Positions 9,983 through 60,692 of a stretch of DNA of 64,000 nt are shown piece by piece. Position numbers and translations under genes: made by a program. Positions within the stretch are counted from its first letter, which is position 1. Each line of letters opens with the position of its first letter. The stretch covers positions 9,055 to 73,054 of IMG/VR virus record IMGVR_UViG_3300011398_000004; one strand, given 5' to 3'. The notes beneath the pieces were generated by a model, which was not told the origin of the DNA, ran no database searches, and saw nothing but the letters and a program-made list of their open reading frames with translations. This DNA is from a virus.

Positions 9983-10013
9983 AGAACTTTACAAATCTCG
10001 AACTTTTAGGATC

Positions 10014-10280
10014 TTGAATTTTACAAAATCAATAACTTTTGGAATCTCAAATATGGTGATAATGTCTCATGTTGAGCTTGTTGGTGGTAAAGTTTATAGA
10101 GGATTAACTAATCTGGATAAGGAGAAAGATGAAAGAATAAAATTTATTGTTATGAAAGAGGGTAGTATAGAGGATTATAGGGAATGTTTATTAGGATTTG
10201 GAATGCGGTCGGAGGAGATCGAAGCAGATATTGTTCATTTTGGTAGTCCTAAGTGGTTCTATTTTGTGAAAACAGACTGA
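10014..10280 (+). CDS. hypothetical protein
   Basis: ORF track. Confidence 0.35.
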   Translation: MNFTKSITFGISNMVIMSHVELVGGKVYRGLTNLDKEKDERIKFIVMKEGSIEDYRECLLGFGMRSEEIEADIVHFGSPKWFYFVKTD

Positions 10281-10329
10281 TTAGAGGAAGGAATTCGGCG
10301 GGAGGCGGGTTTTGGAGCTGTAAAAGGAC

Positions 10330-10654
10330 GTTTACACCGTTTACAGTGTTTACAAATCGAGGGTAAATCACGGTGTTCGTAAACATGGTGTTTACATGTC
10401 CAAAAAGCTGTAAGTTACTGGAAACAAACGAGTTGCGGCGTCACTGTTCTGTAAACGTAAACGGTAAACAACACCTCCTCCAACAGTTGCTTGGCGTTTC
10501 CCGGGACCGGGGCTTTTTGCGTAACTCTTTAAATACCATGTTTACACTGTTTACAGAGTTTACAAACCCTAAATCGGACCTGTAAATACCGGCATTTTTC
10601 TGTAAACTGGATTTGTAAACGGCATTTACCCTCGAACACCACCTGTTTACAGAA
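10330..10654. repeat. iteron array, about 15 copies of GTTTACA/TGTAAAC in both orientations; candidate origin of replication
   Basis: Direct reading shows gtttacaccgtttacagtgtttacaaa..., ...tgtaaacgtaaacggtaaaca..., ...gtttacactgtttacagagtttacaaa..., ...tgtaaactggatttgtaaacgg..., ...cctgtttacag. Non-coding, downstream of the primase/helicase. Confidence 0.5.
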
Positions 10655-11089
10655 AAGCTCTAGTGAACCACCCTCGGCACGACTAAATCCATCCTCGGAA
10701 TGAATTTATGAAGATAAATAGCATCTTTGACACATCGAGCCGGCTCCTCTGACCCTAAACTCGGCCAACAATACAGACTTTCTGAGTAAATTTTCCCGCA
10801 TTTCGGACACTTTCCTCGATTTTCGGAGCTCGGACGACGACTTTTTCCATCGGATGACCTCAGTTACGTCTTTTATCGTCAGTTACAGGTTTGAATAGAT
10901 CGAAATCCCATCATTGATGTGGTCTATCTACGTCTAAGTGCTTCCACCCACAACTTGCCGCAGATTGCAAGCTCTAAATTTCGAATCAACTCATTCCTAA
11001 ATCCACGTTTAGTAATCTAATGTAAGGATTACTGCCCGTGCCGTGCTTAATTATAGCACGGAACAGTTAAATCACCTAGTCTTATTTTT

Positions 11090-11104
11090 ATCAATGAAAA
11101 GATC
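11090..11104 (+). repeat. copy 1 of the 15-mer ATCAATGAAAAGATC
   Basis: Same 15-mer, or its reverse complement, recurs at 14011-14025, 14103-14117 and 14135-14149, on both sides of the high-GC island. Confidence 0.5.
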
Positions 11105-11116
11105 TAATTTAAAGAT

Positions 11117-11145
11117 TTGCAATCTTTATTAAAATGTGGTATAAT
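11117..11145 (+). promoter_or_regulatory. consensus sigma-70/sigma-A promoter TTGCAA-N17-TATAAT
   Basis: TTGCAA at 11117-11122, exactly 17-nt spacer, TATAAT at 11140-11145. Confidence 0.45.
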
Positions 11146-11152
11146 GATAAAT

Positions 11153-11497
11153 ATGCGAGAGAATTTCCCAAATAATGAGAGAAATATCTATTTCTCAGAA
11201 TATGTCGCACGTCGAAATATGATCAACAGATGTATAAATCCTGATTGTAAAGAATGGAAATGGTATGGTGTTAGAGGAATAAAGGTCTGTGATCGTTGGA
11301 TAAATAGTTTCTTAGATTTTCTTAAAGATATTGGTCCGAAACCATCACCAGGATTAACATTAGGAAGAATAGACAACGATGGGGATTATGAACCTGGGAA
11401 TGTTAAATGGTCAACTAGAAAAGAACAAGCAAATAATCGACGTAGACGAGAATACGATCGTTCACCAGATACAAGATTAAGGCGTAGGCGCATATAG
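11153..11497 (+). CDS. HNH homing endonuclease (YGVRGIKVC...RIDNDGDYEPGNVKWSTRKEQANNRRRR)
   Basis: ORF track 11117..11497 begins with TTG, which is the -35 hexamer itself, so the first in-frame ATG after the -10 box (11153) is preferred. Start is uncertain. Confidence 0.55.
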   Translation: MRENFPNNERNIYFSEYVARRNMINRCINPDCKEWKWYGVRGIKVCDRWINSFLDFLKDIGPKPSPGLTLGRIDNDGDYEPGNVKWSTRKEQANNRRRREYDRSPDTRLRRRRI

Positions 11498-11643
11498 TAA
11501 AGTTGTGCAATATTATCACTATAAGATCTTTTCATAGATCGGCTTCTAAAAGAAGAAATAAAAAGATGTAAACGGATATGGCTCACCTGTGCTATGCTTT
11601 TGTTTGCCGCCAATACCAGCGGCACTCACAAGGAGATAACGCG

Positions 11644-12027
11644 ATGAAATTCGATAACAAGATTGAAGCGATCAAGGCTCTCCGCAACATCCCTCGTGGA
11701 ACTGCGGAGATCTCAATTGCTACCGGCAAGCCTACGCTGGTAGTCAGTGGCGGTGGTCTGGGTTTCAAGGAGGCCAAGGATCTCGTCGAAGCCATCTGCG
11801 AGATGGGTGTCCAATATCATCTGTCTCGGCAGCGTAATGACATTCTGCGTGAATTCTTGCAGACCGAGCTCGCCAAGCTCCCCGCTCCGCCGTCCAACAT
11901 CCCCAACTGCAATCGTTGCGGGAATTCTCTCGTGGACCAGTTCTCGGCTCAGCCCTGCCAGACCTGCTGGGACAAGGAGCAGGATCGTCTGCGAGAAGCG
12001 CAACTCGACGATGACATTCACTTCTAA
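11644..12027 (+). CDS. ribosomal protein L7/L12 C-terminal-domain-like protein, first gene of the high-GC island
   Basis: AAGGAGATAACGCG then ATG. [11 protein letters not shown]...[16 protein letters not shown] matches the L7/L12 CTD core ([24 protein letters not shown]). High-GC codon usage unlike the flanking phage genes. Confidence 0.5.
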   Translation: [127 protein letters not shown]

Positions 12028-12314
12028 TGGTGACAGTCATCGTCATCCTAACCGTGTTTTTCGCGATCCTGCTAATGGTGGTAGGAGTTCCTCTTCTTCT
12101 CTTATGGATAGTCCGTAACTCTATCCAAGCGGCCAAGTATCGCGCTCTTGTTCATGCATCCTCGCAAGTAAGAACTGGATACACGATCGTTTACAAGAGC
12201 GGAAGAAAGACAGAGAAGATGGATCTTGATGGGGCCACGGAAGGAGAGGCCATGATGGATCTTGTCAAGAGGAAGGTCTCCTATGACAAAATTATTTCTT
12301 TAACGAAGAAATAA
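12027..12314 (+). CDS. small membrane protein (one TM helix)
   Basis: TAATG overlap with upstream gene; VIVILTVFFAILLMVVGVPLLLLWIV. Confidence 0.45.
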   Translation: MVTVIVILTVFFAILLMVVGVPLLLLWIVRNSIQAAKYRALVHASSQVRTGYTIVYKSGRKTEKMDLDGATEGEAMMDLVKRKVSYDKIISLTKK

Positions 12315-12400
12315 TAAGAACAAATCTGCTGGCTGCGCCGTGCTATATTACTACTGGCGCAGCGCATACCGCGCGAGCCACATAAAGGAGATAGGAAGAT

Positions 12401-12634
12401 ATGGGAGAGCCAATCAAAATGGAGCATATTCTGGCTCCTGCCGCAAAGGTCAAAGTGGCCTACGGCAACTGGCGCGAGACTTCTCTCGCGCTTGCTCCTG
12501 CCGAATTCAAGGCAGGCACTCAAATCGTCGGAACTTGCGGCTCCTGCTTGGAAGTCGTGGCCGCTGTCAAACTCAAACTCGTGCGTCTCCCCTTCGGGCG
12601 TGGGGAAGCGTGGAAATGCGAGAACTGCCGATGA
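12401..12634 (+). CDS. zinc-ribbon protein (CGSC...CENC)
   Basis: AAGGAGATAGGAAG then ATG at 12401. Confidence 0.45.
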   Translation: MGEPIKMEHILAPAAKVKVAYGNWRETSLALAPAEFKAGTQIVGTCGSCLEVVAAVKLKLVRLPFGRGEAWKCENCR

Positions 12635-12903
12635 TATTTCCACGCTGGAAACGTCGTTCCCATACAGCCAACGTCGCTGATCCCACACAGGTCACTGTGT
12701 GGGAGTTCGGCAAGCGTAACTTCCAAATCTCGCTCGTTGCCTCATGGGGCGTCGAGGCGAAGATTTACTTCATGGGCCGGAAGTTCTGGTCCTATGACGC
12801 GTGGTGGGCAATTCGTCTGTATGACTTCCTCGAGAACCAGTGGGAAGCTCAGCAGATGGATTACGAGGAAGACCCGATGGGTCGGTTGTCGGATTACGAA
12901 TAA
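12616..12903 (+). CDS. hypothetical Trp-rich protein
   Basis: Internal Met of ORF 12340..12903 (MRELPMIFPRWKRR...), overlapping the end of the upstream gene. The upstream part of that ORF looks like GC-driven read-through. Confidence 0.35.
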   Translation: MRELPMIFPRWKRRSHTANVADPTQVTVWEFGKRNFQISLVASWGVEAKIYFMGRKFWSYDAWWAIRLYDFLENQWEAQQMDYEEDPMGRLSDYE

Positions 12904-12916
12904 GGAGATAACGAAG

Positions 12917-13165
12917 ATGAGAAAACGCCAACAGGAGCTGTTCTTCGAGGACAGTTCCTGGAAAGGCTCGAATACCGAGCGTGATGTTATGAGATCCTTC
13001 GAAGCTGCTGGTCGGGAGACTGACATCAGTCACAATGAGCCGTTACCAGAGCGTCGGCGGCATCTGATGAAAGTCGTCTGCCTCGAGTGCTCGACGAAGT
13101 TTACGACGAGATCGCACATCCCGTCGTGTCCCGGCTGTGGAGGTTCGGATATCGAACTTCGGTGA
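12917..13165 (+). CDS. zinc-ribbon protein (CLEC...CPGC)
   Basis: TAAGGAGATAACGAAG then ATG; MRKRQQELFFED...VVCLECSTKFTTRSHIPSCPGCGGSDIELR. Confidence 0.45.
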   Translation: MRKRQQELFFEDSSWKGSNTERDVMRSFEAAGRETDISHNEPLPERRRHLMKVVCLECSTKFTTRSHIPSCPGCGGSDIELR

Positions 13166-13346
13166 ATTTCCGTGATCCTCGTTCGTTTGGACTACAGATA
13201 TGATCTCGCGGCGGTGCCCAAGACCCCGGCTGAACATATCAAGTGCCTGAACTTTCGATAACTTCGAGAGCGGGACGTAGGAGAACTTCTTTGAACTTGA
13301 TAGAATTAAGAACCTTTGAGCTTTTGAAAAAGAGCAAAATAAGATA

Positions 13347-13375
13347 TTGCAATCTTGCGGCGAGCGTGCTACGCT
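13347..13375 (+). promoter_or_regulatory. promoter TTGCAA-N17-TACGCT inside the island
   Basis: TTGCAAtcttgcggcgagcgtgcTACGCT. The -10 is the same type as the phage early promoter family. Confidence 0.35.
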
Positions 13376-13452
13376 GCATTACACGGTGCGGGTGCAATTC
13401 AGCACCCCACCACACGTCGTCAATCAGCGGCAGATAGAGAGCAGAGTGTATC

Positions 13453-13905
13453 ATGAGCAGGAATCAGCGCGGTGGTGGAGTTCAGGAGCAGGAGAAGCCG
13501 GAGACGGAAGTCGCGGTCGAGACCACGGCTGTCGCGGAGAAGGCCAATCGCACGGCGTTCTTCCATTCGCCGCATCCGAAGGTCGGGCAGGCGTCGCGGG
13601 TCAGCTACACGATCCCCGGCGTCTCGGGCAATATCGTCATCTTCCTCAGCATGTTCAAGGACGGCGTCGCGCCTCCCACGCTGACGTTCGATGTCGACCT
13701 CGCGGAGCCGAAGGCGGACGGGAAGCAGGCCAAGGCGGAGGCCGCGGCGCTCAAGGCTCAGGAGAAGGCCGAGAAGGCGCAGGCGCGTCTCGTCGCTCAG
13801 CAGGAGAAGGCGGTGGCGATCGCGGCCAAGGCGCAGCAGGCGTTGGACGCGGCCAAGGCTAAGGTCGGGACGGCGGAGCCGAAGACCGAGGAAGTCACGT
13901 CGTAG
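13453..13905 (+). CDS. hypothetical protein with Ala/Lys/Gln-rich C-terminal coiled-coil or histone-H1-like tail
   Basis: ORF track. Overlapping Arg/Leu-rich ORFs on other frames are GC artefacts. Confidence 0.4.
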   Translation: MSRNQRGGGVQEQEKPETEVAVETTAVAEKANRTAFFHSPHPKVGQASRVSYTIPGVSGNIVIFLSMFKDGVAPPTLTFDVDLAEPKADGKQAKAEAAALKAQEKAEKAQARLVAQQEKAVAIAAKAQQALDAAKAKVGTAEPKTEEVTS

Positions 13906-13962
13906 AGCTCGGATTCTGGTTGCAACCGATGGTATGATCGGTTGCAGTCTAGACGCTCGGAG

Positions 13963-14005
13963 ATAGCCGCAGAGCACTCTCCCTCTGCGGCTATTCTTTT
14001 GTTCT
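13963..14005 (+). terminator. rho-independent terminator closing the island operon
   Basis: Perfect 12-bp stem ATAGCCGCAGAG/CTCTGCGGCTAT, 8-nt loop, then TCTTTTGTTCT. It is preceded by a second hairpin at 13919-13947 (TTGCAACCGAT/ATCGGTTGCA). Confidence 0.55.
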
Positions 14006-14102
14006 AATTCATCTTTTCATTGATCGGACGGACTTCATAGGTAATGAATCTCCTCAGTTAGAGATTCATCCTTAAGATTAGATGTGCTATAATCTTCTGC
14101 GT

Positions 14103-14149
14103 ATCAATGAAAAGATCCTTTACTTCTTATCATTGATCTTTTCATTGAT
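14103..14149. promoter_or_regulatory. operator-like inverted repeat ATCAATGAAAAGATC, 17-nt spacer, GATCTTTTCATTGAT
   Basis: Two perfect 15-bp arms; the same 15-mer recurs at 11090 and 14011. Confidence 0.45.
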
Positions 14150-14221
14150 CGCGACGATCGGATGGATCATATCTAAGATCCTCTTTGATCAGTTACAGAT
14201 CGCTCATCGCGGCGCGGCTCC

Positions 14222-14252
14222 AAATGTACGAAACCGTACATTGTACGAAACC
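14222..14252. repeat. direct repeat GTACGAAACCGTACA, two copies
   Basis: gtacgaaaccgtacattgtacgaaaccgtacatgg. Confidence 0.4.
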
Positions 14253-14254
14253 GT

Positions 14255-14432
14255 ACATGGCACGGCATATGCTATAGCATATACCATGCCATGCCATAGT
14301 GTCATATGGCACGGTTTATGCTATAGCATAAACCCTGCCATGTCATAATACCGTATGGCATAGGATATGCTATAGCATATCCCATGCCATACCACGGCAT
14401 AGCATGGCACGAGGTATGCTAATAGCATATAC
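14255..14432. repeat. array of four copies of the 14-bp perfect palindrome TATGCTATAGCATA (one copy has a 1-nt insertion) at roughly 48-bp spacing, interleaved with GGCATGG/CCATGCC motifs
   Basis: Read directly: catatgctatagcatatacc, tttatgctatagcataaacc, atatgctatagcatatccc, gtatgctaatagcatatacc. Non-coding; the overlapping ORF 14082..14348 is spurious. Confidence 0.5.
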
Positions 14433-14769
14433 CATACCACATACACGCATACCAATATGTGCATGTGGCATGGTATATGCCCTTTGTACACCTAAAACCC
14501 TGTAAGTGTAGGTGTCTCAATAATAGGTCAAAACCCGTCTAAGGGGCAAACGAGCACCCTAACGGGTGCTGGCATGGCATGGCGGGTGCTACTCACCACG
14601 GGGCTAGGAATGGCAAATAGGGCATATGTCACTTTGTGTCACAAAGTAGCACCCGACACTATGTATCTACAGATATTTTGCGGCACCCTTACGATTTATG
14701 TTGCATTGACCTATATATATGTGCCATACTACGGGTTACTGCAATACCGCAGTGTATGAGAGTAGGTCA

Positions 14770-15433
14770 TATGACAAGAGCAGAGAAAAGAGCAGCCGCT
14801 AAGGCTGCTACGCTGGACACCGTAGCCAACAGCATGTTGGCTGCCGAAGTGGCACCCGCCGAAGTGACACCCGCCGAAGTGGCACCCGCCGAAGTGGCAC
14901 CCGCCGAAGTGGCACCCGCTACCATCCTGCCATTGTGGCTCAGTGCCATACTGGCGTCATTCGCTGGCAGTATCGGCAGTGCATACGCCGTCATTTGCAC
15001 TGGCTATGCCACGTCACCCGCGCGGGTGAAATACAGCATCACGGGACGTGGTGACGCCATTGTGGCGGTACTCTCCCACTTCGTGACACTGCCCCTGCAA
15101 GGTTCGCTCTTGAACCTGTACCCGACGGACACGGAAGTACCGGGGCATACGCTGCACTACGCTGGCGCTAACAGTGTCGGCCACACGTACCGCCTTAGCG
15201 GACACAAGGGTACATGGGTGTTTCGTGGTACGGCCCTTGCGATGCTCGGCACCGTACCGCCTGCCATGCTGCTTTGTGACGTGCCATTGTTGGGCGATAT
15301 CCGTACCGCCAATCTCACCACACCCGAAGCACTCAAGACACCGCACGGACTCACGGTACACAGTGCCATACTTGAAGTAGTGGCACCCGTCGAAGTGGCA
15401 CCCGTCGCACCCGTGGTGCCCGATGCCACGTAG
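14770..15433 (+). CDS. hypothetical protein with (PAEVA)x5 tandem repeat and hydrophobic segments
   Basis: 15-bp DNA tandem repeat gccgaagtggcaccc x5 at ~14848-14922; partial repeats again at the C-terminus (VAPVEVAPVAPVVP); high GC. Start chosen at ATG 14770, since the upstream part of ORF 14636 lies in lower-GC sequence. Confidence 0.4.
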
Positions 15434-15642
15434 GCGCATCACGCTAACACCCGATGGGGGTTTATCCCTCATGGTGTTAGGTGTGGTGTACGTGCTACTG
15501 CTCTTATACGTGTCACGCTAGGCACGTACCGCGCCACGTCACCCGATGCCACTGTGTACCAGTAGCGGTACACAGTGGCATCATAATGTACAGGCATAAG
15601 CCGTGCCACCCCCCAAAAGTGTAATCACGGCTGGCGCGGACG

Positions 15643-54503: not shown

Positions 54504-54573
54504 CTTATTGATGGGACGGGAGTTTCTCATAGGGGGAATATGAGGATCCCCATTGATAAGACGTAACAAGGGC

Positions 54574-54605
54574 GGATAGGGTGTGGCTTCCCTATCCGTT
54601 CCTAG
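54574..54605. terminator. bidirectional hairpin terminator between the convergent gene blocks
   Basis: GGATAGGG/CCCTATCC 8-bp perfect stem, 8-nt loop. Confidence 0.45.
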
Positions 54606-54612
54606 TTCTTAT

Positions 54613-54879
54613 TCATCTTCGATCTATGACAATACCTAGACCTAAGATTCTAGCTTCGAGGATGGAACGGTCTAACTTAGCCTGTAGTAAGCGAGCACTA
54701 CATTCTGTAGCTAATTCTTCCACAGATTTCAATTGACACGATAGAATGTCTCGATATCGAGTGATGTCCTTTGTACTCTGATTACTATAATCTTGAATCG
54801 ATTGTTGAGTAATCATCTCGAATTTTGTCATTCGACGTTCTTTAACCTTCGGTTTACGTGACGCAGTTTTCTTTTTCAT
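54613..54879 (-). CDS. hypothetical protein
   Basis: ORF track. Confidence 0.35.
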   Translation of the reverse strand: MKKKTASRKPKVKERRMTKFEMITQQSIQDYSNQSTKDITRYRDILSCQLKSVEELATECSARLLQAKLDRSILEARILGLGIVIDRR

Positions 54880-55376
54880 TTATCTTCCTCATTAAATTTT
54901 CCGTCTTTTCCTCTTGGTTGTAATATGTGACTATCTTTATAAGCACCTCTTTCTATTCTTTTATGATGATGTTCTTTTACGTGTTCAGTTTCATCTTTAG
55001 GCTCAAGATTATCTGGATGATCATTTAATCTATTTTCATCTATATGATGAGCGATTTCATTTGGTAAAAGTAATCTTCCAAGTTTTTCTTCTAAATTAAT
55101 ATCAGCACGTTTAGCGTATGGAAACCATGACTTACGATGATAATCAGGCTTATAGATTAAGAAATATCCATTTCTAATTATTTCTCCTCCTTTCCAATTA
55201 GGATTATCAATTCCAAATTTATCTTTTCTTGTTAGTTTTTCTCTTTGAAGAATTAGACCAATAATTCCTTTTCCTACATGAAGTTGTTTGGCAATGTCAG
55301 AAATCTTTTGACCAGATGTATATAGACTTATTACCTCCTTCTTTAAAATATCGTAATCTTGGCGACTTCTAGTCAT
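54876..55376 (-). CDS. HNH endonuclease
   Basis: EIAHHIDENRLNDHPDNLEPKDETEHVKEHHH. Confidence 0.6.
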   Translation of the reverse strand: MTRSRQDYDILKKEVISLYTSGQKISDIAKQLHVGKGIIGLILQREKLTRKDKFGIDNPNWKGGEIIRNGYFLIYKPDYHRKSWFPYAKRADINLEEKLGRLLLPNEIAHHIDENRLNDHPDNLEPKDETEHVKEHHHKRIERGAYKDSHILQPRGKDGKFNEEDK

Positions 55377-56888: not shown

Positions 56889-57587
56889 TTACGTGATTTT
56901 CCATACCCTGTCCGTAATTTTCTGGTAAGTTCCTAAGAGCTCCTGATATATCCTCTTGACTAAACGCTTAAGAGGATCATTAATCATCGTCCAGATAAGA
57001 CTCCACGGCCAATACGTAATCCATGATAAGAATCTTGTTTTATGCCTACTGGGATCAGTCTTAGCATGTGTCATATAGACATCCCATCTATCCATATATT
57101 CTGGAGGAATGTTTGTTCCTTTAATACTGTGATGTTCTATAAATCTTTCCTTCGTTAATTGGAATCTATTCGTCTCAGAAAACCACCATTTAACTATAGA
57201 CCAGATAGCACCAATTACAAAATATCCTAAGAAGATTTCAATAGCAATCCATGGATGATCCCATAGATAAGTAAATGGTTTATTTTCACTAAAGAATTCA
57301 AATGATAATAAGATAGCGATTAATAAAATTGTGGAAATACCAAAACCAAAATCATCATCTTCATGATCTAAAGTCCAACATAAAACGCAAGAATATAAGA
57401 ATAAAAGAATCCAGAAAGGGGTAGTCCCTATGACTAATACAGTAGCTAGAATAGCGAATAGAGGAGCACCCCAAGTAATTAATCCTCCGATTATCAAAGC
57501 TAGAACGATTAAAACTAGCATTATTTCTATCATAGTTTCCTTCATATGAAAATAGCCGTGGAACCTACTGCAAGTTCCACGGCTCAA
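56889..57587 (-). CDS. polytopic membrane protein (at least 4 TM), downstream partner of the vault-protein homologue
   Basis: 10-nt gap after the MVP-like gene; multiple hydrophobic helices. Confidence 0.5.
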   Translation of the reverse strand: MSRGTCSRFHGYFHMKETMIEIMLVLIVLALIIGGLITWGAPLFAILATVLVIGTTPFWILLFLYSCVLCWTLDHEDDDFGFGISTILLIAILLSFEFFSENKPFTYLWDHPWIAIEIFLGYFVIGAIWSIVKWWFSETNRFQLTKERFIEHHSIKGTNIPPEYMDRWDVYMTHAKTDPSRHKTRFLSWITYWPWSLIWTMINDPLKRLVKRIYQELLGTYQKITDRVWKIT

Positions 57588-57597
57588 CCGCCCATCT

Positions 57598-60078
57598 TTA
57601 CTGACTAGTGCCAGTAGGCATTCTTGAACGAGTGCCTAACGTCTTCATCACACCCTCGAATGGCGTTCCTCGAAACAATTGTGACAGAACGTCCGCTGTA
57701 CTGACTCCACTCATCGCAGCCATAGGAGCCAGTGCTACTGTCATCTTACCAATCAATTCTTGATCAGCAAATGCAGTAAGAGCAACTGCCAACTTATCAT
57801 CAACTGCCGCAGCTCTCTTGACGATTTCCTCGGTCTCACCGATGATTCGTTTGAGTTCGACATCGACGAGTCGCTGTTTTGCATCGGCTTGTTGCTTCGC
57901 TATCGCTTCTTCTCTAGCGATAGTTTGTGTATTGATCTCATTGAGAACTAACTGCTCAGCTTTTTGCACTTCTAATTTCTGAGAAGTTATTTCTCCATAC
58001 GACTCAACTTCAGCTAACGATGAAGCTGTAACCGCTGCTGTCTTTCTTAATGCTAGTTCACTGGCCTTCTCAAGTGTCTCAGTGATAGCAGTAGCCGATT
58101 CACGTTTGAGCCTCTCGCTTTCCTTCGTGAATTCTAAGTCCCTCTGCTCCTTCGATAATTTCAATGCAGAGGTAAGAGCATCCGTTTGAGCACTCCCCAA
58201 CAATCCGGCTACAGCAGGATTCTTAATAGAAACATCGAGGATTTCGATGTCGTATACGTGCATTCCGTTTTCATCAAATGTTCGACCGGGGCGTTTTCCA
58301 TCGACTGCTATACCTAATGTAGCATCGCGGATGATATCGATGGTATTACCGTAGAAGTCGGTGATGTTCTTCCTCTTTGCGGCATTGCGGATGATCGACC
58401 GCATATGGTCGCATAGGAGTCGAACATAATTCTCGACAGAGAACCACTTTTGATCATCACCTTCGAAGTTCATTCTGTAGGAAGTAGTCAATGTAACTTG
58501 AACTAAATCCTGTGTTTCAACTGTCATCTGATCGGATACCTTGTTGTTACGCACACGTAGGTATACAGTCGGATACAATTTAACATCAGTCTTCGGCGTT
58601 CCTGTTGACAATTCAATAGGAGCTAACGTCTCATCGTATTCGAGGAGGACATTCTCAGGGCCGATGACTACACGACGCTTCCCTGTCTTGTTCACAATTA
58701 GAACAGCGTAGCCTGCCCAAACTGCGATTGAGACGGCACCCTCATATTTGGTATCGAGAGTGATAGTACGTGGTGGTGTAAATTGAGTTCCACGTGCGAA
58801 AGTATCACCAGCGATACTCTTACTCGTAGACTTCATCAGTTTTTGAGCATCCTCCTGCACCATGAAATTGGAATACATGGATGCTGTAATAGGACGCCCA
58901 ACTTCATAGGCGGATGATCCATCACCTTTATTCAGTTCCTCGAGTTCCTTGTTGACTGCAACAACTTTTTCGTTGTTAGGATACCACAAACGAACAGTCT
59001 TCTCAGAAAGAACACGACGAATGATGACTTCCTTGCGTGGGTCGCATAAGAGCATACGTGGCCCACGGACGAGATTCACTTCGCCAGTGTTACGGTCGAG
59101 GACGTAACGACCTTCCCCCGGTGGGATCGCCACAGCGTAATGCTTTGTTTGATCTCCGTAGCGAATGATGCTATGTTCTTCGCGTTGGAAATAGATGGCC
59201 TGTTCAGCTCCAGTGATAAAGAGTTCATCACCGACTTTGTATTGTTTATCACCATCTTTGTAATCCGCAATTACCTTGATGTATAAGCCGCTATTCGCAT
59301 TGAGTTCAATAGCCCTGAACTTTCGGCTACCATCCTTCAATACGAAAGTCTCAGTGGGTTCCGGGAATACGACTGCCGGCCCTTGAACGAATCTCTTGTT
59401 GCCATTCTCGCCGAGGAGAATACAATATTCGAGACGTTCGAGAGTAACAGCTTCACGTACGTAGTTCTTATTCTCATCGGGGACAACTTTAACTCCCGTA
59501 GGAGGAATGAAGAAGGCAACTTCCGTTCCTTTGATAATAATCAATTGCCCGGGAACGAACTTCTTCATCTCGGATAAAGCTACCGGAGTTGGGGTACCGT
59601 CACCATCTTGTGGTTTTACTACGGCTTTCTTCCAGTTTTCACTTGCTTCAGTATCATTATAGACCTGAGCAAGTAAATATTGATTCGAGCGCAAGTGATG
59701 ACCCTGAATGACATTCGCCATCTGACCAGGCCATAATGAGAAATGGATTGGTCCAGGAAGGTTGACCCTATGACCTACCTTCAATGGTATAGAGACGGAC
59801 GAAGCTCCATCCCGTGGGTAACTGTCCGCAGGATTATACAGTGCGATGTAAAATCCTTCAGGAGCGATTGGATTCGTCTGAATTGCTTTATCGGCATCCG
59901 TTCGTGTAAAACGTCTTTCTTTCTTATTCCATACAACTGGTTGATCAGTATTCGACATACTGATCTTGTTAGGTCCAACTATTGTATTCACAAGCCCCTT
60001 CGTTGTGTCTAACACGAAGGCGAACTCACCAGGAGCTAGTACTAAATCTCGATCTCTACCCAAACTATTTTGATCCAT
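57598..60078 (-). CDS. major vault protein (MVP) homologue
   Basis: 826 aa. N-terminal repeat elements FAFVLDTTKGLVNTIVGPN and YCILLGENGNKRFVQGP resemble MVP repeats (YIHVLDQNSNVSRVEVGPK). The segment ETQDLVQVTLTTSYRMNFEGDDQKWFSVENYVRLLCDHMRSIIRNAAKRKNITDFYGNTIDIIRDATLG aligns residue-for-residue in pattern with the MVP shoulder region [25 protein letters not shown]...[47 protein letters not shown]. A C-terminal Ala/Glu/Lys-rich coiled coil resembles the cap-helix. Confidence 0.55.
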   Translation of the reverse strand: MDQNSLGRDRDLVLAPGEFAFVLDTTKGLVNTIVGPNKISMSNTDQPVVWNKKERRFTRTDADKAIQTNPIAPEGFYIALYNPADSYPRDGASSVSIPLKVGHRVNLPGPIHFSLWPGQMANVIQGHHLRSNQYLLAQVYNDTEASENWKKAVVKPQDGDGTPTPVALSEMKKFVPGQLIIIKGTEVAFFIPPTGVKVVPDENKNYVREAVTLERLEYCILLGENGNKRFVQGPAVVFPEPTETFVLKDGSRKFRAIELNANSGLYIKVIADYKDGDKQYKVGDELFITGAEQAIYFQREEHSIIRYGDQTKHYAVAIPPGEGRYVLDRNTGEVNLVRGPRMLLCDPRKEVIIRRVLSEKTVRLWYPNNEKVVAVNKELEELNKGDGSSAYEVGRPITASMYSNFMVQEDAQKLMKSTSKSIAGDTFARGTQFTPPRTITLDTKYEGAVSIAVWAGYAVLIVNKTGKRRVVIGPENVLLEYDETLAPIELSTGTPKTDVKLYPTVYLRVRNNKVSDQMTVETQDLVQVTLTTSYRMNFEGDDQKWFSVENYVRLLCDHMRSIIRNAAKRKNITDFYGNTIDIIRDATLGIAVDGKRPGRTFDENGMHVYDIEILDVSIKNPAVAGLLGSAQTDALTSALKLSKEQRDLEFTKESERLKRESATAITETLEKASELALRKTAAVTASSLAEVESYGEITSQKLEVQKAEQLVLNEINTQTIAREEAIAKQQADAKQRLVDVELKRIIGETEEIVKRAAAVDDKLAVALTAFADQELIGKMTVALAPMAAMSGVSTADVLSQLFRGTPFEGVMKTLGTRSRMPTGTSQ

Positions 60079-60106
60079 TTTATCCTTTCCGTCATTAACG
60101 AAGAAG

Positions 60107-60190
60107 TGCGAAGGGAGGGACTCGAACCCTCATGATCTTACGATCGGGAGATTTTAAGTCTCCTGTGAATGCCAATTCCACCACCTTCGC
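60107..60190 (-). tRNA. tRNA-Leu (anticodon UAA), type II with long variable arm
   Basis: Reverse complement GCGAAGGTGGTGGAATTGGCATTCACAGGAGACTTAAAATCTCCCGATCGTAAGATCATGAGGGTTCGAGTCCCTCCCTTCGCA. 7-bp acceptor stem, 3-bp D-stem, anticodon stem GGAGA/TCTCC with loop CTTAAAA, T-arm GAGGG-TTCGAGT-CCCTC. Confidence 0.8.
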
Positions 60191-60607
60191 TCAATGATTG
60201 ACTTTACCATTACAGCTACGAGAACAAAATATTCCTATCCAAGGTTTACATTTCTTATTTCTAACTTGATGAATAGTTGGATTAAATTCTTTTCTACAAA
60301 ACTCACAAATCCAAATTATCTTAGAAATATCTTCTGTATGATGTTTTCTATGTTCAGGCCTTTTTAAAACTTCAAAATTATTATCTTCATTATTAGCATG
60401 GTTTAAATCTTTATGATGAACTTGTTCATCTATTTCTAAATATCTATTTAATATACATTCCATTCTATATTTAGGATAAGAAACAGTCATCCTTTCAATT
60501 ATCGTACTGTTAATATCTCGCTTAACTAAACAGACATGGAGTCTTCCATCAGGTCTTGAATATGGTCCGTAAACCTCATATTCTTCATACACGATGTTTG
60601 ACTCCAT
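60191..60607 (-). CDS. HNH endonuclease inserted between two tRNA genes
   Basis: HHKDLNHANNEDNNFEVLKRPEHRKHH, plus C-terminal CEFC...CSRSC zinc knuckles. Confidence 0.6.
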   Translation of the reverse strand: MESNIVYEEYEVYGPYSRPDGRLHVCLVKRDINSTIIERMTVSYPKYRMECILNRYLEIDEQVHHKDLNHANNEDNNFEVLKRPEHRKHHTEDISKIIWICEFCRKEFNPTIHQVRNKKCKPWIGIFCSRSCNGKVNH

Positions 60608-60619
60608 GTCTATTCAAAG

Positions 60620-60692
60620 TGGGCCATCTTGGACTTGAACCAAGAACCACTCGATTATGAGCCGAGTGCTCTGACCATTGAGCTAACGGCCC
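60620..60692 (-). tRNA. tRNA-Met/Ile2 (anticodon CAU), elongator type
   Basis: Reverse complement GGGCCGTTAGCTCAATGGTCAGAGCACTCGGCTCATAATCGAGTGGTTCTTGGTTCAAGTCCAAGATGGCCCA; anticodon loop CTCATAA; the anticodon stem lacks the three G-C pairs typical of initiator tRNA. Confidence 0.8.

What the first reader, a model, noticed from the sequence alone, without database searches (positions are those of the whole stretch)
56889..60078. Phage-encoded major vault protein homologue in an operon with a polytopic membrane protein
The 826-aa minus-strand protein carries the hallmarks of eukaryotic major vault protein (MVP):
- N-terminal repeat elements of the form hydrophobic-x-VLD...V-x-GP
- a shoulder-like segment that matches the MVP [19 protein letters not shown]...FSVPDFVGD...VTFDDFH region in pattern: ETQDLVQVTLTTSYRMNFEGDDQKWFSVENYVRLLCDH...ITDFY
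- a long C-terminal Ala/Glu/Lys-rich coiled coil like the MVP cap-helix

It is immediately followed, with a 10-nt gap, by a gene for a multi-TM membrane protein. Vault particles are large eukaryotic ribonucleoprotein shells; MVP homologues are rare in bacteria, and to my knowledge are not an established phage function.

A phage-borne copy next to a membrane partner could build a shell or compartment. It could instead be a membrane-remodelling scaffold, since the MVP shoulder has an SPFH-like fold and a separate SPFH/flotillin-like gene sits at 1..846. A role in superinfection exclusion is also possible.
Basis: partly seen in the sequence, partly recalled or inferred. Interest (0 to 1): 0.85.

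Follow-up and report, generated by a model that had tools for sequence, protein, structure and literature searches.

The report
Phage-borne bacterial-type major vault protein
A tailed phage carries a genuine, full-length relative of the protein that builds eukaryotic "vault" cages, but such genes are already known in bacteria and phages, and the proposed partnership with the neighbouring membrane protein does not hold up.

Summary

MVP homologues are not rare: 617 clusters at 50% identity (E<=1e-30), at least 427 bacterial species and at least 239 IMG/VR contigs. Phage MVPs were reported in a 2023 preprint.

The "operon with a membrane protein" is not supported. A 14-bp terminator-like hairpin lies between the genes, inside the proposed TTG-started N-terminus. 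The membrane protein has only 4 relatives, and the two whose loci I read lie away from any MVP gene. None of 80 viral MVP loci has it. Most MVP genes end in such a hairpin.

The protein has no membrane anchor, no defence-system match, no vault RNA or TEP1/PARP partner, and lacks the human NAD+ pocket. Most likely it is a stand-alone accessory gene whose product self-assembles into a soluble vault-like cage. Its nearest cellular relatives are CPR bacteria. It is a new member of a known kind, and its function is still unknown.

The parts
57598..60078 (-). Gene for the 826-aa bacterial-type major vault protein (MVP) homologue, stop codon included
   Evidence: ORF. Pfam MVP_shoulder 92.2 bits, Vault_3 41.3 bits, Band_7 25.6 bits. 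PDB phmmer and profile searches hit only MVP, E=1.8e-13 and 4e-28. Foldseek full-length MVP matches E=1e-20 to 1e-26.
60083..60090 (-). Shine-Dalgarno-like GGAAAGGA, 4 nt upstream of the ATG
   Evidence: Read directly from the sequence.
59008..60054 (-). Residues 9-357: stack of about six five-stranded beta repeat domains (R1-like 9-54, then about 55-112, 113-200, 201-258, 259-308, 309-357)
58747..59007 (-). Residues 358-444: two helices (359-385) plus a variable, low-confidence linker, in the position of the R8 insertion of eukaryotic MVP
   Evidence: pLDDT below 50 for 386-443 in both models. Poorly conserved (0.50).
58549..58746 (-). Residues 445-510: R9-like repeat (Vault_3), including the conserved LSTGxPKT loop that corresponds to the human 'keyhole loop'
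   Evidence: Pfam Vault_3 at 464-499. Alignment to human MVP 462-520. L490, S491, G493, P495 and K496 are invariant in A1.
58219..58548 (-). Residues 511-620: MVP shoulder (SPFH-fold) domain
   Evidence: PF11978 at 511-618, E=3e-26. pLDDT 81-92. SPFH cage proteins are the next-best fold matches after MVP.
57808..58218 (-). Residues 621-757: a single ~137-residue cap-helix-like alpha helix
   Evidence: DSSP helix 621-757 with pLDDT about 80-88. Aligned to MVP cap-helix residues ~647-800. This is the least conserved region (0.45), and its amphipathic periodicity is only weak.
57601..57807 (-). Residues 758-826: C-terminal short helices with a conserved ...APxxxxxGxS...LFxGTP... motif, in the cap-ring position
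   Evidence: Helices 761-817. P785 and G791 are invariant in A1.
57554..57584 (-). Terminator-like hairpin (14-bp stem, 3-nt loop) followed by ATTTTCATAT, starting 14 nt after the MVP stop codon
   Evidence: Top terminator-like site in 54-64 kb. MFE -23.8 kcal/mol, z=-3.6, and 0 of 200 shuffles fold as well. A comparable hairpin follows the MVP stop in 79% of 82 viral and 51% of 78 bacterial loci.
56889..57533 (-). Neighbouring gene for a 214-aa polytopic membrane protein (an alternative ATG at 57545 gives 218 aa). It is adjacent to the MVP gene but not a conserved partner of it.
   Evidence: ENA gene call of 214 aa. Only 4 homologues. Relatives P0122 and P0123 sit in phage early-gene clusters without an MVP gene. 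Absent from 80 viral MVP loci. GC3 0.307 against 0.424 for the MVP gene.
60106..60190 (-). tRNA-Leu(taa) directly upstream of the MVP gene, marking the upstream boundary of the MVP unit
   Evidence: ARAGORN and Rfam tRNA at 54.7 bits.

Best explanation
The gene encodes a bona fide member of the bacterial-type branch of the major vault protein family. From N- to C-terminus it has a stack of beta repeat domains, an R9-like repeat, an SPFH-fold shoulder, a ~137-residue cap helix and a small conserved C-terminal helical region.

It is a stand-alone accessory gene in the leftward replication/early arm of a roughly 73-kb tailed phage. A tRNA-Leu and an HNH homing-endonuclease gene lie upstream, and a terminator-like hairpin lies downstream. 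It belongs to a small clade of phage-borne copies whose nearest cellular relatives are in CPR bacteria (Parcubacteria, Saccharibacteria).

I infer the following, none of which is shown. During infection the soluble protein is made in quantity. Like eukaryotic MVP and other SPFH-fold proteins, it self-assembles laterally through its repeat, shoulder and cap-helix regions. The product is a large hollow homo-oligomeric cage (a vault or half-vault) in the host cytoplasm, built without a dedicated partner. That cage sequesters or shelters some component during infection.

The downstream membrane protein is an unrelated neighbour.
For: Shown, identity and fold:
- Pfam MVP_shoulder 92 bits and Vault_3 41 bits.
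- Only MVP chains are hit in the PDB by sequence.
- Foldseek's top 12 matches are all full-length vault chains.
- A continuous helix spans 621-757.

Shown, phage context:
- Terminase, portal, major head, tape-measure and primase-helicase proteins.
- DNA ligase, UvrD-like, Pam3 gp33/gp34-like and HNH genes lie around the MVP gene.

Shown, soluble and partner-free:
- Maximum 19-residue hydropathy is 1.31, so there is no TM segment.
- No neighbour is conserved across 80 viral loci or across 69 bacterial loci.
- A strong hairpin follows the stop codon here and in 79% of viral and 51% of bacterial loci.

Shown, lineage: the clade {window, L002, L003, L004, L166, L167} is sister to the CPR copies. 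The Parcubacteria copy sits among housekeeping genes.

Support for self-assembly (inference):
- The repeat and shoulder regions that form lateral contacts in vaults are the most conserved parts (0.72-0.82).
- All solved relatives of this fold are closed cage or ring formers.
- Eukaryotic MVP alone assembles into vault-like particles in E. coli (PMC9778704, abstract seen).
- Borg elements carry vault proteins predicted to assemble (PMC12660748).
Against: - The paper library held no report that any prokaryotic or phage MVP homologue forms particles.
- Only monomer models were possible here.
- The cap helix, which drives assembly in eukaryotic MVP, is the least conserved region (0.45). It is about 137 residues against about 155 in rat MVP, and its amphipathic periodicity is only weakly significant (17 of 500 shuffles).
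- I count about seven beta domains plus an insert, not nine. Any particle would therefore differ from the eukaryotic one.
- The cargo and the benefit to the phage are entirely inferred.
- The viral status of most IMG/VR contigs was not checked individually.
Confidence: 0.6

Rival explanations
1. The MVP-like protein and the downstream polytopic membrane protein form an operon-encoded pair. Together they build a membrane-attached dome or membrane-remodelling scaffold, in the manner of HflK/C, flotillin or stomatin.
For: The two genes are adjacent on the same strand. The shoulder has an SPFH fold and scores just above the Band_7 threshold (25.6 against 23.6 bits). SPFH membrane cages are the next-best structural matches after MVP. 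The hairpin's T-tract is imperfect (ATTTTCATAT), so some read-through is possible.
Against: - A 14-bp hairpin (z=-3.6) separates the genes and overlaps the proposed TTG start.
- The membrane protein has 4 relatives in 5.8 billion proteins, against thousands for MVP.
- Its relatives at 48% and 41% identity lie in loci without an MVP gene.
- None of 80 viral MVP loci contains it.
- Close same-strand downstream genes with two or more TM segments: 2 of 53, against a 4.2% background.
- The MVP-like protein has no hydrophobic anchor, whereas the phage's own Band_7 protein has one.
- GC3 differs between the two genes (0.424 against 0.307).
Confidence: 0.06
2. A host-derived 'moron' that benefits the infected or lysogenised cell. 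It would act in superinfection exclusion or anti-phage defence, for example by caging incoming phage components.
For: The gene is a self-contained unit with its own ribosome-binding site and a terminator-like hairpin. Its genomic context differs between phages. It has close cellular homologues. Eukaryotic MVP is linked to antiviral responses (introduction of 10.1101/2023.11.10.566534).
Against: There is no meaningful PADLOC match (best hit is LmuA at E=0.0066 on the coiled coil). Bacterial copies sit next to unrelated housekeeping or signalling genes, with no recurring neighbour. None of the window ORFs I scanned matched an integrase or repressor family. The gene lies within the replication/early arm and not at a prophage end.
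Confidence: 0.12
3. A nucleotide sponge. The assembled shell would bind NAD+, ADP-ribose or related immune signalling nucleotides through the shoulder / keyhole-loop pocket described for human MVP, and so blunt NAD+-based host defences.
For: Human MVP binds NAD+, ADP and ADP-ribose at a pocket between adjacent shoulder domains (PMC12280208; 10.64898/2026.05.01.722283). The corresponding loop (LSTGxPKT) is nearly invariant in the bacterial/phage family, which suggests a conserved functional site.
Against: Only P505 and K506 of the 13 mapped human loop and pocket positions are retained. The basic residues R504, R507, R511 and K573 map to T, T, a hydrophobic residue and D, and P565 maps to E. The human pocket chemistry is therefore absent, and any ligand would have to be different.
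Confidence: 0.05
4. A virion-associated or morphogenetic protein (scaffold, decoration or internal protein) and not a separate cytoplasmic cage.
For: It is a large, probably abundant, self-associating protein encoded by a phage. 42 of the 80 IMG/VR contigs examined that carry it are 100 kb or larger.
Against: It lies on the opposite strand and outside the 20-54 kb structural module, among replication genes. There is no PHROG family match and no BFVD structural match. Chromosomal orthologues about 50-60% identical exist in non-phage contexts.
Confidence: 0.05

Closest known systems
Bacterial major vault protein homologues, the 'chemotrophic' clade of Myxococcota, Cytophagales and others (Daly et al. 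2013, PMC3762200; Sokolskyi 2019, bioRxiv 10.1101/872010)
   Same: Same length class (about 810-870 aa) and the same Pfam pair, PF17795 + PF11978, with a marginal Band_7 signal. Identity is 49-59% over 97-100% of the length to chromosomal proteins of Nannocystis, Polyangiales, Cytophagales, Sericytochromatia and Parcubacteria. It is also a stand-alone gene with no conserved neighbour.
   Different: This copy is encoded by a tailed phage. It belongs to a phage-only sub-clade (63-68% identity) that is sister to CPR copies.
Phage MVPs of Caudoviricetes sp. ctOa11 and ct2Ri15 (Santos et al. 2023, bioRxiv 10.1101/2023.11.10.566534)
   Same: A full-length bacterial-type MVP homologue in a tailed-phage genome. 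No TEP1 or PARP homologues accompany it, flanking genes are not conserved, and the function is unknown.
   Different: Those two come from human-gut metagenomes and are linked to Bacillota (Clostridium, Lachnospiraceae). This one belongs to a different phage lineage whose closest cellular relatives are CPR bacteria. I could not compare the sequences directly, because those records were not among the hits in the phage collection.
Eukaryotic major vault protein and the vault particle (PDB 4V60, 4HL8, 7PKZ, 9BW5, 9Z4W)
   Different: - Identity is only about 17-18%.
- About seven beta domains plus a helical/disordered insert, not nine repeats.
- The cap helix is shorter.
- The NAD+/ADPr pocket residues are not conserved.
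- There is no vault RNA, and none of the ORFs I scanned matched a TEP1- or PARP4-like family.
- Particle formation is untested.
Membrane-anchored SPFH cage formers (HflK/C, prohibitin, flotillin, stomatin, QmcA)
   Same: The shoulder shares the SPFH fold and is followed by a long helix, the architecture these proteins use to build closed domes (Foldseek E=1e-6 to 1e-3).
   Different: There is no N-terminal membrane anchor. An additional ~510-residue N-terminal repeat stack is present, which SPFH proteins lack. MVP matches are about 20 orders of magnitude stronger.
Predicted vault proteins of Borg extrachromosomal elements (PMC12660748)
   Same: An MVP-like gene carried by a large mobile genetic element of a prokaryote. 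The authors predict that the subunits assemble into vault-like arrangements.
   Different: Borgs are archaeal elements, and there the gene sometimes co-occurs with histone genes. No sequence comparison was made here.

Membership tests
Major vault protein family (Pfam MVP_shoulder + Vault repeats) | MVP shoulder domain (PF11978) above the gathering threshold | tested here: met
   92.2 bits against a cut-off of 25, E=3e-26, residues 511-618 covering profile positions 2-116 of 118.
Major vault protein family (Pfam MVP_shoulder + Vault repeats) | Vault repeat domain models | tested here: met
   Vault_3 (PF17795) scores 41.3 bits against 28.8 (residues 464-499). The classic Vault model PF01505 is sub-threshold (12.4 against 27).
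Major vault protein family (Pfam MVP_shoulder + Vault repeats) | N-terminal stack of five-stranded beta repeat domains in an extended arrangement | tested here: met
Major vault protein family (Pfam MVP_shoulder + Vault repeats) | Nine repeats (R1-R9) | tested here: inconclusive
   DSSP on model 2 gives about six beta domains in 9-357, then a helical/disordered insert (358-444), then an R9-like domain. Sequence self-similarity between units is weak (hhalign E=1e-3 to 1e-2). No residue-level structural alignment was available to map the repeats one to one.
Major vault protein family (Pfam MVP_shoulder + Vault repeats) | Long cap helix directly after the shoulder, then a C-terminal cap region, collinear with MVP | tested here: met
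   Helix 621-757 and helices 761-817. phmmer aligns residues 449-785 to rat MVP 458-804. Foldseek full-length alignments have E=1e-20 to 1e-26.
Major vault protein family (Pfam MVP_shoulder + Vault repeats) | Self-assembly into a closed, 39-fold, two-halved cage | not testable with these tools
   Only monomer prediction is offered. The literature search found no experimental structure of any prokaryotic homologue.
Complete vault ribonucleoprotein (MVP + vault RNA + TEP1 + PARP4) | Vault RNA gene | tested here: not met
   At gathering thresholds Rfam finds only two tRNAs in the window.
Complete vault ribonucleoprotein (MVP + vault RNA + TEP1 + PARP4) | TEP1-like (TROVE/NACHT/WD40) or PARP4-like minor vault proteins | tested here: not met
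   No such Pfam or PHROG families appeared among the 50 or so window ORFs I scanned. About 9 kb of the source contig lies outside the window and was not seen.
Human-type MVP NAD+/ADP-ribose pocket | Conservation of R504, K506, R507, P508, H509, R511, L517, D521, F522, W545, P565 and K573 | tested here: not met
   These map to T494, K496, T497, D498, V499, Y502, R508, N512, K513, M536, E549 and D557. Only K506 is kept, plus the neighbouring loop residue P505, which I also mapped.
Canonical membrane-anchored SPFH / Band 7 proteins | Band_7 domain plus an N-terminal membrane anchor | tested here: not met
   Band_7 is marginal (25.6 against 23.6 bits). There is no hydrophobic segment (maximum KD19 1.31). 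The phage's separate Band_7 protein at 1..846 has one (3.05).
   Hairpin between the genes. The partner is absent from 80 viral loci. The partner's relatives are found without an MVP gene. No enrichment of downstream TM proteins.
Known anti-phage defence systems (PADLOC-DB 2.0) | Match to a defence-protein model | tested here: not met
   Only a non-significant hit on the coiled coil (LmuA, E=0.0066, no stretch passing).

The most novel reading that the evidence does not exclude
Phages, including this roughly 73-kb siphovirus-like phage that may infect ultra-small CPR bacteria and many 100-500 kb phages, build their own vault-like protein cages inside the infected cell. The cages would serve as an infection-specific compartment or sequestration device, for example to trap host defence factors or signalling molecules, or to shelter phage components. 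That would give vaults a concrete function in a tractable prokaryotic setting.
Probability: 0.15. Interest if true: 0.85.

Novelty: new member of a known kind. Interest (0 to 1): 0.4.

Why it matters
The function of vaults is a decades-old open question, and a prokaryotic or phage system could make it testable. This locus adds a clean example: a complete tailed-phage context and a full-length, well-modelled MVP homologue.

My survey goes beyond the two gut phages reported in 2023 in four ways:
- At least 239 IMG/VR contigs carry such genes. Of the 80 I examined, 20 are 200 kb or larger.
- The viral copies fall into a few largely virus-only clades.
- The gene is typically a terminator-bounded, partner-free unit.
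- This clade's nearest cellular relatives are CPR bacteria.

None of this establishes a function. The striking part of the original claim, a new phage function operating with a membrane partner, does not survive. The value here lies in a good candidate for expression and EM and in a corrected picture of how common these genes are.

Tried and rejected
- PHROGs on the MVP-like protein: no family.
- NCBIfam: no model.
- PADLOC: nothing meaningful.
- BFVD viral structures: no match at E<=1e-3.
- Membrane partner as a family-wide companion: rejected.
- Any other conserved neighbour:
  - Viral loci: the largest true neighbour clusters cover 8 or fewer of 82 loci. The top apparent clusters were antisense shadow ORFs inside the MVP gene.
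  - Bacterial loci: the maximum is 8 of 69, a generic histidine kinase.
- Band_7 co-occurrence. It is seen in the window, L050, L166 and L167. The proteins are not orthologous to each other and no such gene was found within the flanks read at the other loci, so I did not pursue it as a system.
- The NAD+/ADPr pocket hypothesis: residues are not conserved.
- First AF2 run with 40 close homologues: only pLDDT 65.6 with a poor middle region. I replaced it for residues 1-520 with a 147-sequence alignment.
- Sequence-level repeat counting by hhalign: too weak to delimit repeats.
- Cap-helix periodicity: weak and ambiguous, with top periods of 2.25, 3.8 and 6.95 residues.
- Host or taxonomic placement through portal and capsid: at most 35% identity to cultured phages of unrelated hosts, so uninformative.
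- Synteny between this phage and other MVP-carrying viral contigs around the gene: essentially none.
- GC and GC3 as a sign of recent transfer: the phage is compositionally mosaic, so this is not decisive.


Full report
**1. The observation**

The window carries an 826-codon ATG-started ORF at 57598..60078 on the minus strand, followed by a hydrophobic ORF at 56889..57587. A Shine-Dalgarno-like GGAAAGGA lies 4 nt upstream of the ATG.

- Repeat motifs ending in GP occur, with GP turns at residues 35, 109, 233, 339 and 473. My regex found 3 matches against 0.41 expected in shuffles; 16 of 2000 shuffles reached 3.
- There is a shoulder-like segment.
- A long A/E/L/K-rich helix spans residues 621-757.
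- The separate SPFH gene at 1..846(-) is also real (Band_7, 60.2 bits).

**2. Is it an MVP homologue? Yes.**

- Pfam gives MVP_shoulder at E=3e-26 (92.2 bits, cut-off 25), Vault_3 at 41.3 bits (cut-off 28.8) and Band_7 at 25.6 bits (cut-off 23.6). The classic Vault repeat model is sub-threshold.
- In a phmmer search of all PDB chains, every significant hit is an MVP chain (E=1.8e-13 to 3.9e-12); one SelR-domain protein appears at E=0.33. Residues 449-785 align to rat MVP 458-804, and weaker stretches fall in the repeat region.
- A 40-sequence profile raises this to E=4e-28, and again only MVP is hit.
- A first AF2 model was mediocre overall (pLDDT 65.6) but confident for the shoulder and a single 137-residue helix. 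Its top 12 Foldseek matches were all full-length vault chains (E=1e-20 to 1e-26). The R1-R7 crystal structures followed (about 5e-9), then SPFH cage proteins (1e-6 and weaker).
- A second model of residues 1-520, from a 147-sequence alignment, reached pLDDT 82.5 and pTM 0.68.

It is clearly not met.

**3. Anatomy**

- Residues 9-357 form about six five-stranded beta domains.
- Residues 358-444 are two helices plus a variable, low-confidence linker.
- Residues 445-510 are the R9-like (Vault_3) domain.
- Residues 511-620 are the shoulder.
- Residues 621-757 are the cap helix.
- Residues 758-826 are short conserved helices.

I count about seven beta domains plus an insert, against nine repeats in eukaryotic MVP. 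The tools gave no residue-level structural alignment, so this count is tentative. Sequence similarity between units is weak.

Within the family the repeats and shoulder are the most conserved parts (majority fraction 0.72-0.82) and the cap helix the least (0.45). The protein has no TM-grade hydrophobic segment (maximum 1.31). The phage's other SPFH protein has a classic N-terminal anchor (3.05).

**4. Context**

The window is a tailed phage:
- Large terminase, portal (PHROG E=3e-116), major head protein, a 1528-aa tape-measure protein and a primase-helicase.
- An ATP-dependent DNA ligase, a UvrD-like helicase, Pam3 gp33/gp34-like proteins and two HNH endonucleases surround the MVP gene on the minus strand.
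- The source contig is 73,054 bp.

The MVP gene therefore lies in the replication/early arm, outside and opposite to the 20-54 kb structural module. tRNA-Leu(taa) abuts it upstream, and tRNA-Met lies beyond an HNH gene. No cultured phage is close: portal and capsid are at most 35% identical to any.

**5. The membrane 'partner'**

Fourteen nucleotides after the MVP stop codon there is a 14-bp stem with a 3-nt loop, followed by ATTTTCATAT. It is the strongest terminator-like site in 54-64 kb. Its fold energy is -23.8 kcal/mol (z=-3.6), and none of 200 shuffles folds as well. It lies inside the first 14 codons of the TTG-started ORF. The real start is therefore almost certainly ATG 57545 or 57533; the ENA gene call uses 57533, giving 214 aa. 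The '10-nt gap' is an artefact of the mechanical ORF definition.

Further evidence against a partnership:
- The membrane protein has only four relatives among 5.8 billion proteins.
- The two relatives with readable context (48% and 41% identity) sit in phage early-gene clusters with no MVP gene.
- None of 80 IMG/VR loci carrying an MVP homologue has a relative of it within 6 kb.
- Close same-strand downstream genes with two or more TM segments occur in 2 of 53 loci, one being this window. The background rate is 4.2%.
- No other neighbour recurs. The best true clusters cover 8 or fewer of 82 viral loci and 8 of 69 bacterial loci.
- A strong hairpin within 90 nt of the MVP stop codon is itself a recurring feature: z<=-2 in 79% of 82 viral loci and 51% of 78 bacterial loci. 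One caveat is that the background there was random windows, mostly coding, and was not matched to intergenic sequence.

The MVP gene is therefore typically a self-contained unit that ends a transcript.

**6. How common, and what is already known**

- The word-index search returned 6,979 hits among a capped 8,000 candidates. All listed hits are about 800-870 aa and most carry PF17795 + PF11978. Many are already named 'major vault protein' by JGI.
- An exhaustive phmmer search against 1.84 billion representatives found 617 clusters at E<=1e-30 and 1,219 at E<=1e-3.
- At least 427 of the GTDB species genomes encode a relative, across Myxococcota, Cytophagales, Sericytochromatia, Vulcanimicrobiota, Riflebacteria, Planctomycetota and CPR.
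- At least 239 IMG/VR contigs do so too. Of the 80 I examined, 42 are 100 kb or larger and 20 are 200 kb or larger.
- Three uncultured huge-phage records in GenBank also match.
- By contrast, PHROGs v4 and BFVD contain nothing similar.

In the literature, bacterial MVP homologues were described by Daly et al. 2013 (PMC3762200) and Sokolskyi 2019 (10.1101/872010). 'The first viral MVPs' were reported in two gut Caudoviricetes by Santos et al. 2023 (10.1101/2023.11.10.566534). Predicted vault proteins are also noted in Borgs (PMC12660748). I found no experimental demonstration of a native prokaryotic vault.

**7. Lineage**

I built a neighbour-joining tree of 84 viral and 81 bacterial copies. 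The window protein falls in a six-member viral clade (63-68% identity). One member sits beside a terminase and portal. Others sit beside ThyX, PolA, DUF3310 and Pam3 gp33/gp34-like genes.

That clade is sister to CPR copies. The 59%-identical Parcubacteria copy lies among G6PD, PGI, DnaB, RecR, CysRS and HrcA-GrpE-DnaK, which is a genuine cellular context. The window clade is closer to bacterial copies (51%) than to the other viral clades (45%), so phages have acquired the gene more than once.

Most other viral copies form large virus-only clades, with only 3 virus/bacterium switches on the tree. Caveats: both sets are the top 80 by similarity to the query, the tree is a simple NJ tree, and I did not verify the viral status of individual IMG/VR contigs.

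**8. Mechanism**

Shown:
- Family membership and fold.
- Solubility (no membrane anchor).
- Independence from any conserved partner.
- Location in the early/replication arm.
- No vault RNA.
- No TEP1- or PARP-like family among the ORFs scanned.
- No defence-model match.

The human NAD+/ADP-ribose pocket (PMC12280208) is not conserved. Only K506, together with the neighbouring loop residue P505, survives among 13 mapped positions, and several basic residues are replaced by T, D, E or hydrophobic residues. The loop itself (LSTGxPKT) is nearly invariant within the family.

Inferred: every solved relative of this architecture forms closed oligomeric cages. The lateral-contact regions are the most conserved. 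Eukaryotic MVP self-assembles in E. coli without partners (PMC9778704). From these I judge it most likely (about 0.55-0.6) that the protein self-assembles into a soluble vault-like or half-vault cage during infection. What it encloses, and why that helps the phage, is unknown. Sequestration or counter-defence is the most attractive idea but is speculative.

**9. Verdict**

The homology call is correct and robust. The operon/membrane-partner idea and the claims of rarity and novelty are not. This is a new member of a known but functionally uncharacterised kind. It is a good candidate for expression and EM, but not a categorically new finding.

Noticed in passing
window 1..846 (-); also L050:8740-10662, L166:7642-8733, L167:828-2744: The phage carries a second SPFH gene. 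It is flotillin/FloT-like: Band_7 60 bits, an N-terminal TM anchor and a coiled-coil tail, and it is cut off by the window start. Separate Band_7 genes also lie within 0.1-7 kb of the MVP gene in three other viral loci, but they are not orthologous to each other and no such gene was found within the flanks read at the other loci.
   Followed up: partly
window 60106-60692 (-): tRNA-Leu(taa) and tRNA-Met(cat) bracket an HNH homing-endonuclease gene (60191-60607, PHROG E=2e-19, GC3 only 0.17) directly upstream of the MVP gene. A second HNH endonuclease gene is at 54876-55376.
   Followed up: partly
window about 12000-15500: A compositionally anomalous stretch: GC 0.55-0.65 against a window mean of 0.41. 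It contains only short, mutually overlapping ORFs on both strands with no Pfam hits. It also has tandem repeats (49 nt x 3.7 at 14257-14439, 15 nt x 5.1 at 14843-14919, and a 17-nt repeat at 14225-14258). Unexplained.
   Followed up: partly
L165 (Parcubacteria contig, MVP at 10001-12538); L085, L086, L141: The nearest cellular relatives of this phage's MVP (56-59% identity) are in CPR bacteria. The Parcubacteria copy sits among housekeeping genes. This may hint that the phage infects a CPR/Patescibacteria host, but I did not test it with spacers or other host markers.
   Followed up: partly
82 viral and 78 bacterial MVP loci (L002-L167), the 90 nt after the MVP stop codon: A strong RNA hairpin immediately after the MVP stop codon recurs across the family (z<=-2 in 79% of viral and 51% of bacterial loci). 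This suggests these genes generally end their transcription unit or carry a stabilising 3' structure.
   Followed up: yes
IMG/VR loci L003-L082; LR756500.1, LR756501.1, LR756503.1: MVP homologues are over-represented on very large viral contigs: 20 of 80 are 200 kb or larger, up to 501 kb, and three curated huge uncultured phages match. They form a few large virus-only clades of 29, 28 and 14 members. The papers I read do not report this distribution.
   Followed up: partly
window 58591-58611 (residues 490-496 of the MVP homologue): The loop LSTGTPK, equivalent to the human MVP 'keyhole loop', is nearly invariant across bacterial and phage homologues (L490, S491, G493, P495 and K496 invariant). 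The basic residues that bind NAD+ in human MVP are replaced, however. This suggests a conserved site with a different ligand or role.
   Followed up: partly
window 54570-54601 (+) and 54613 (-): A 12-bp terminator-like hairpin on the plus strand sits at the point where the rightward structural module (ending about 54503) meets the leftward replication arm (ending at 54613). This looks like a convergent transcription boundary.
   Followed up: no
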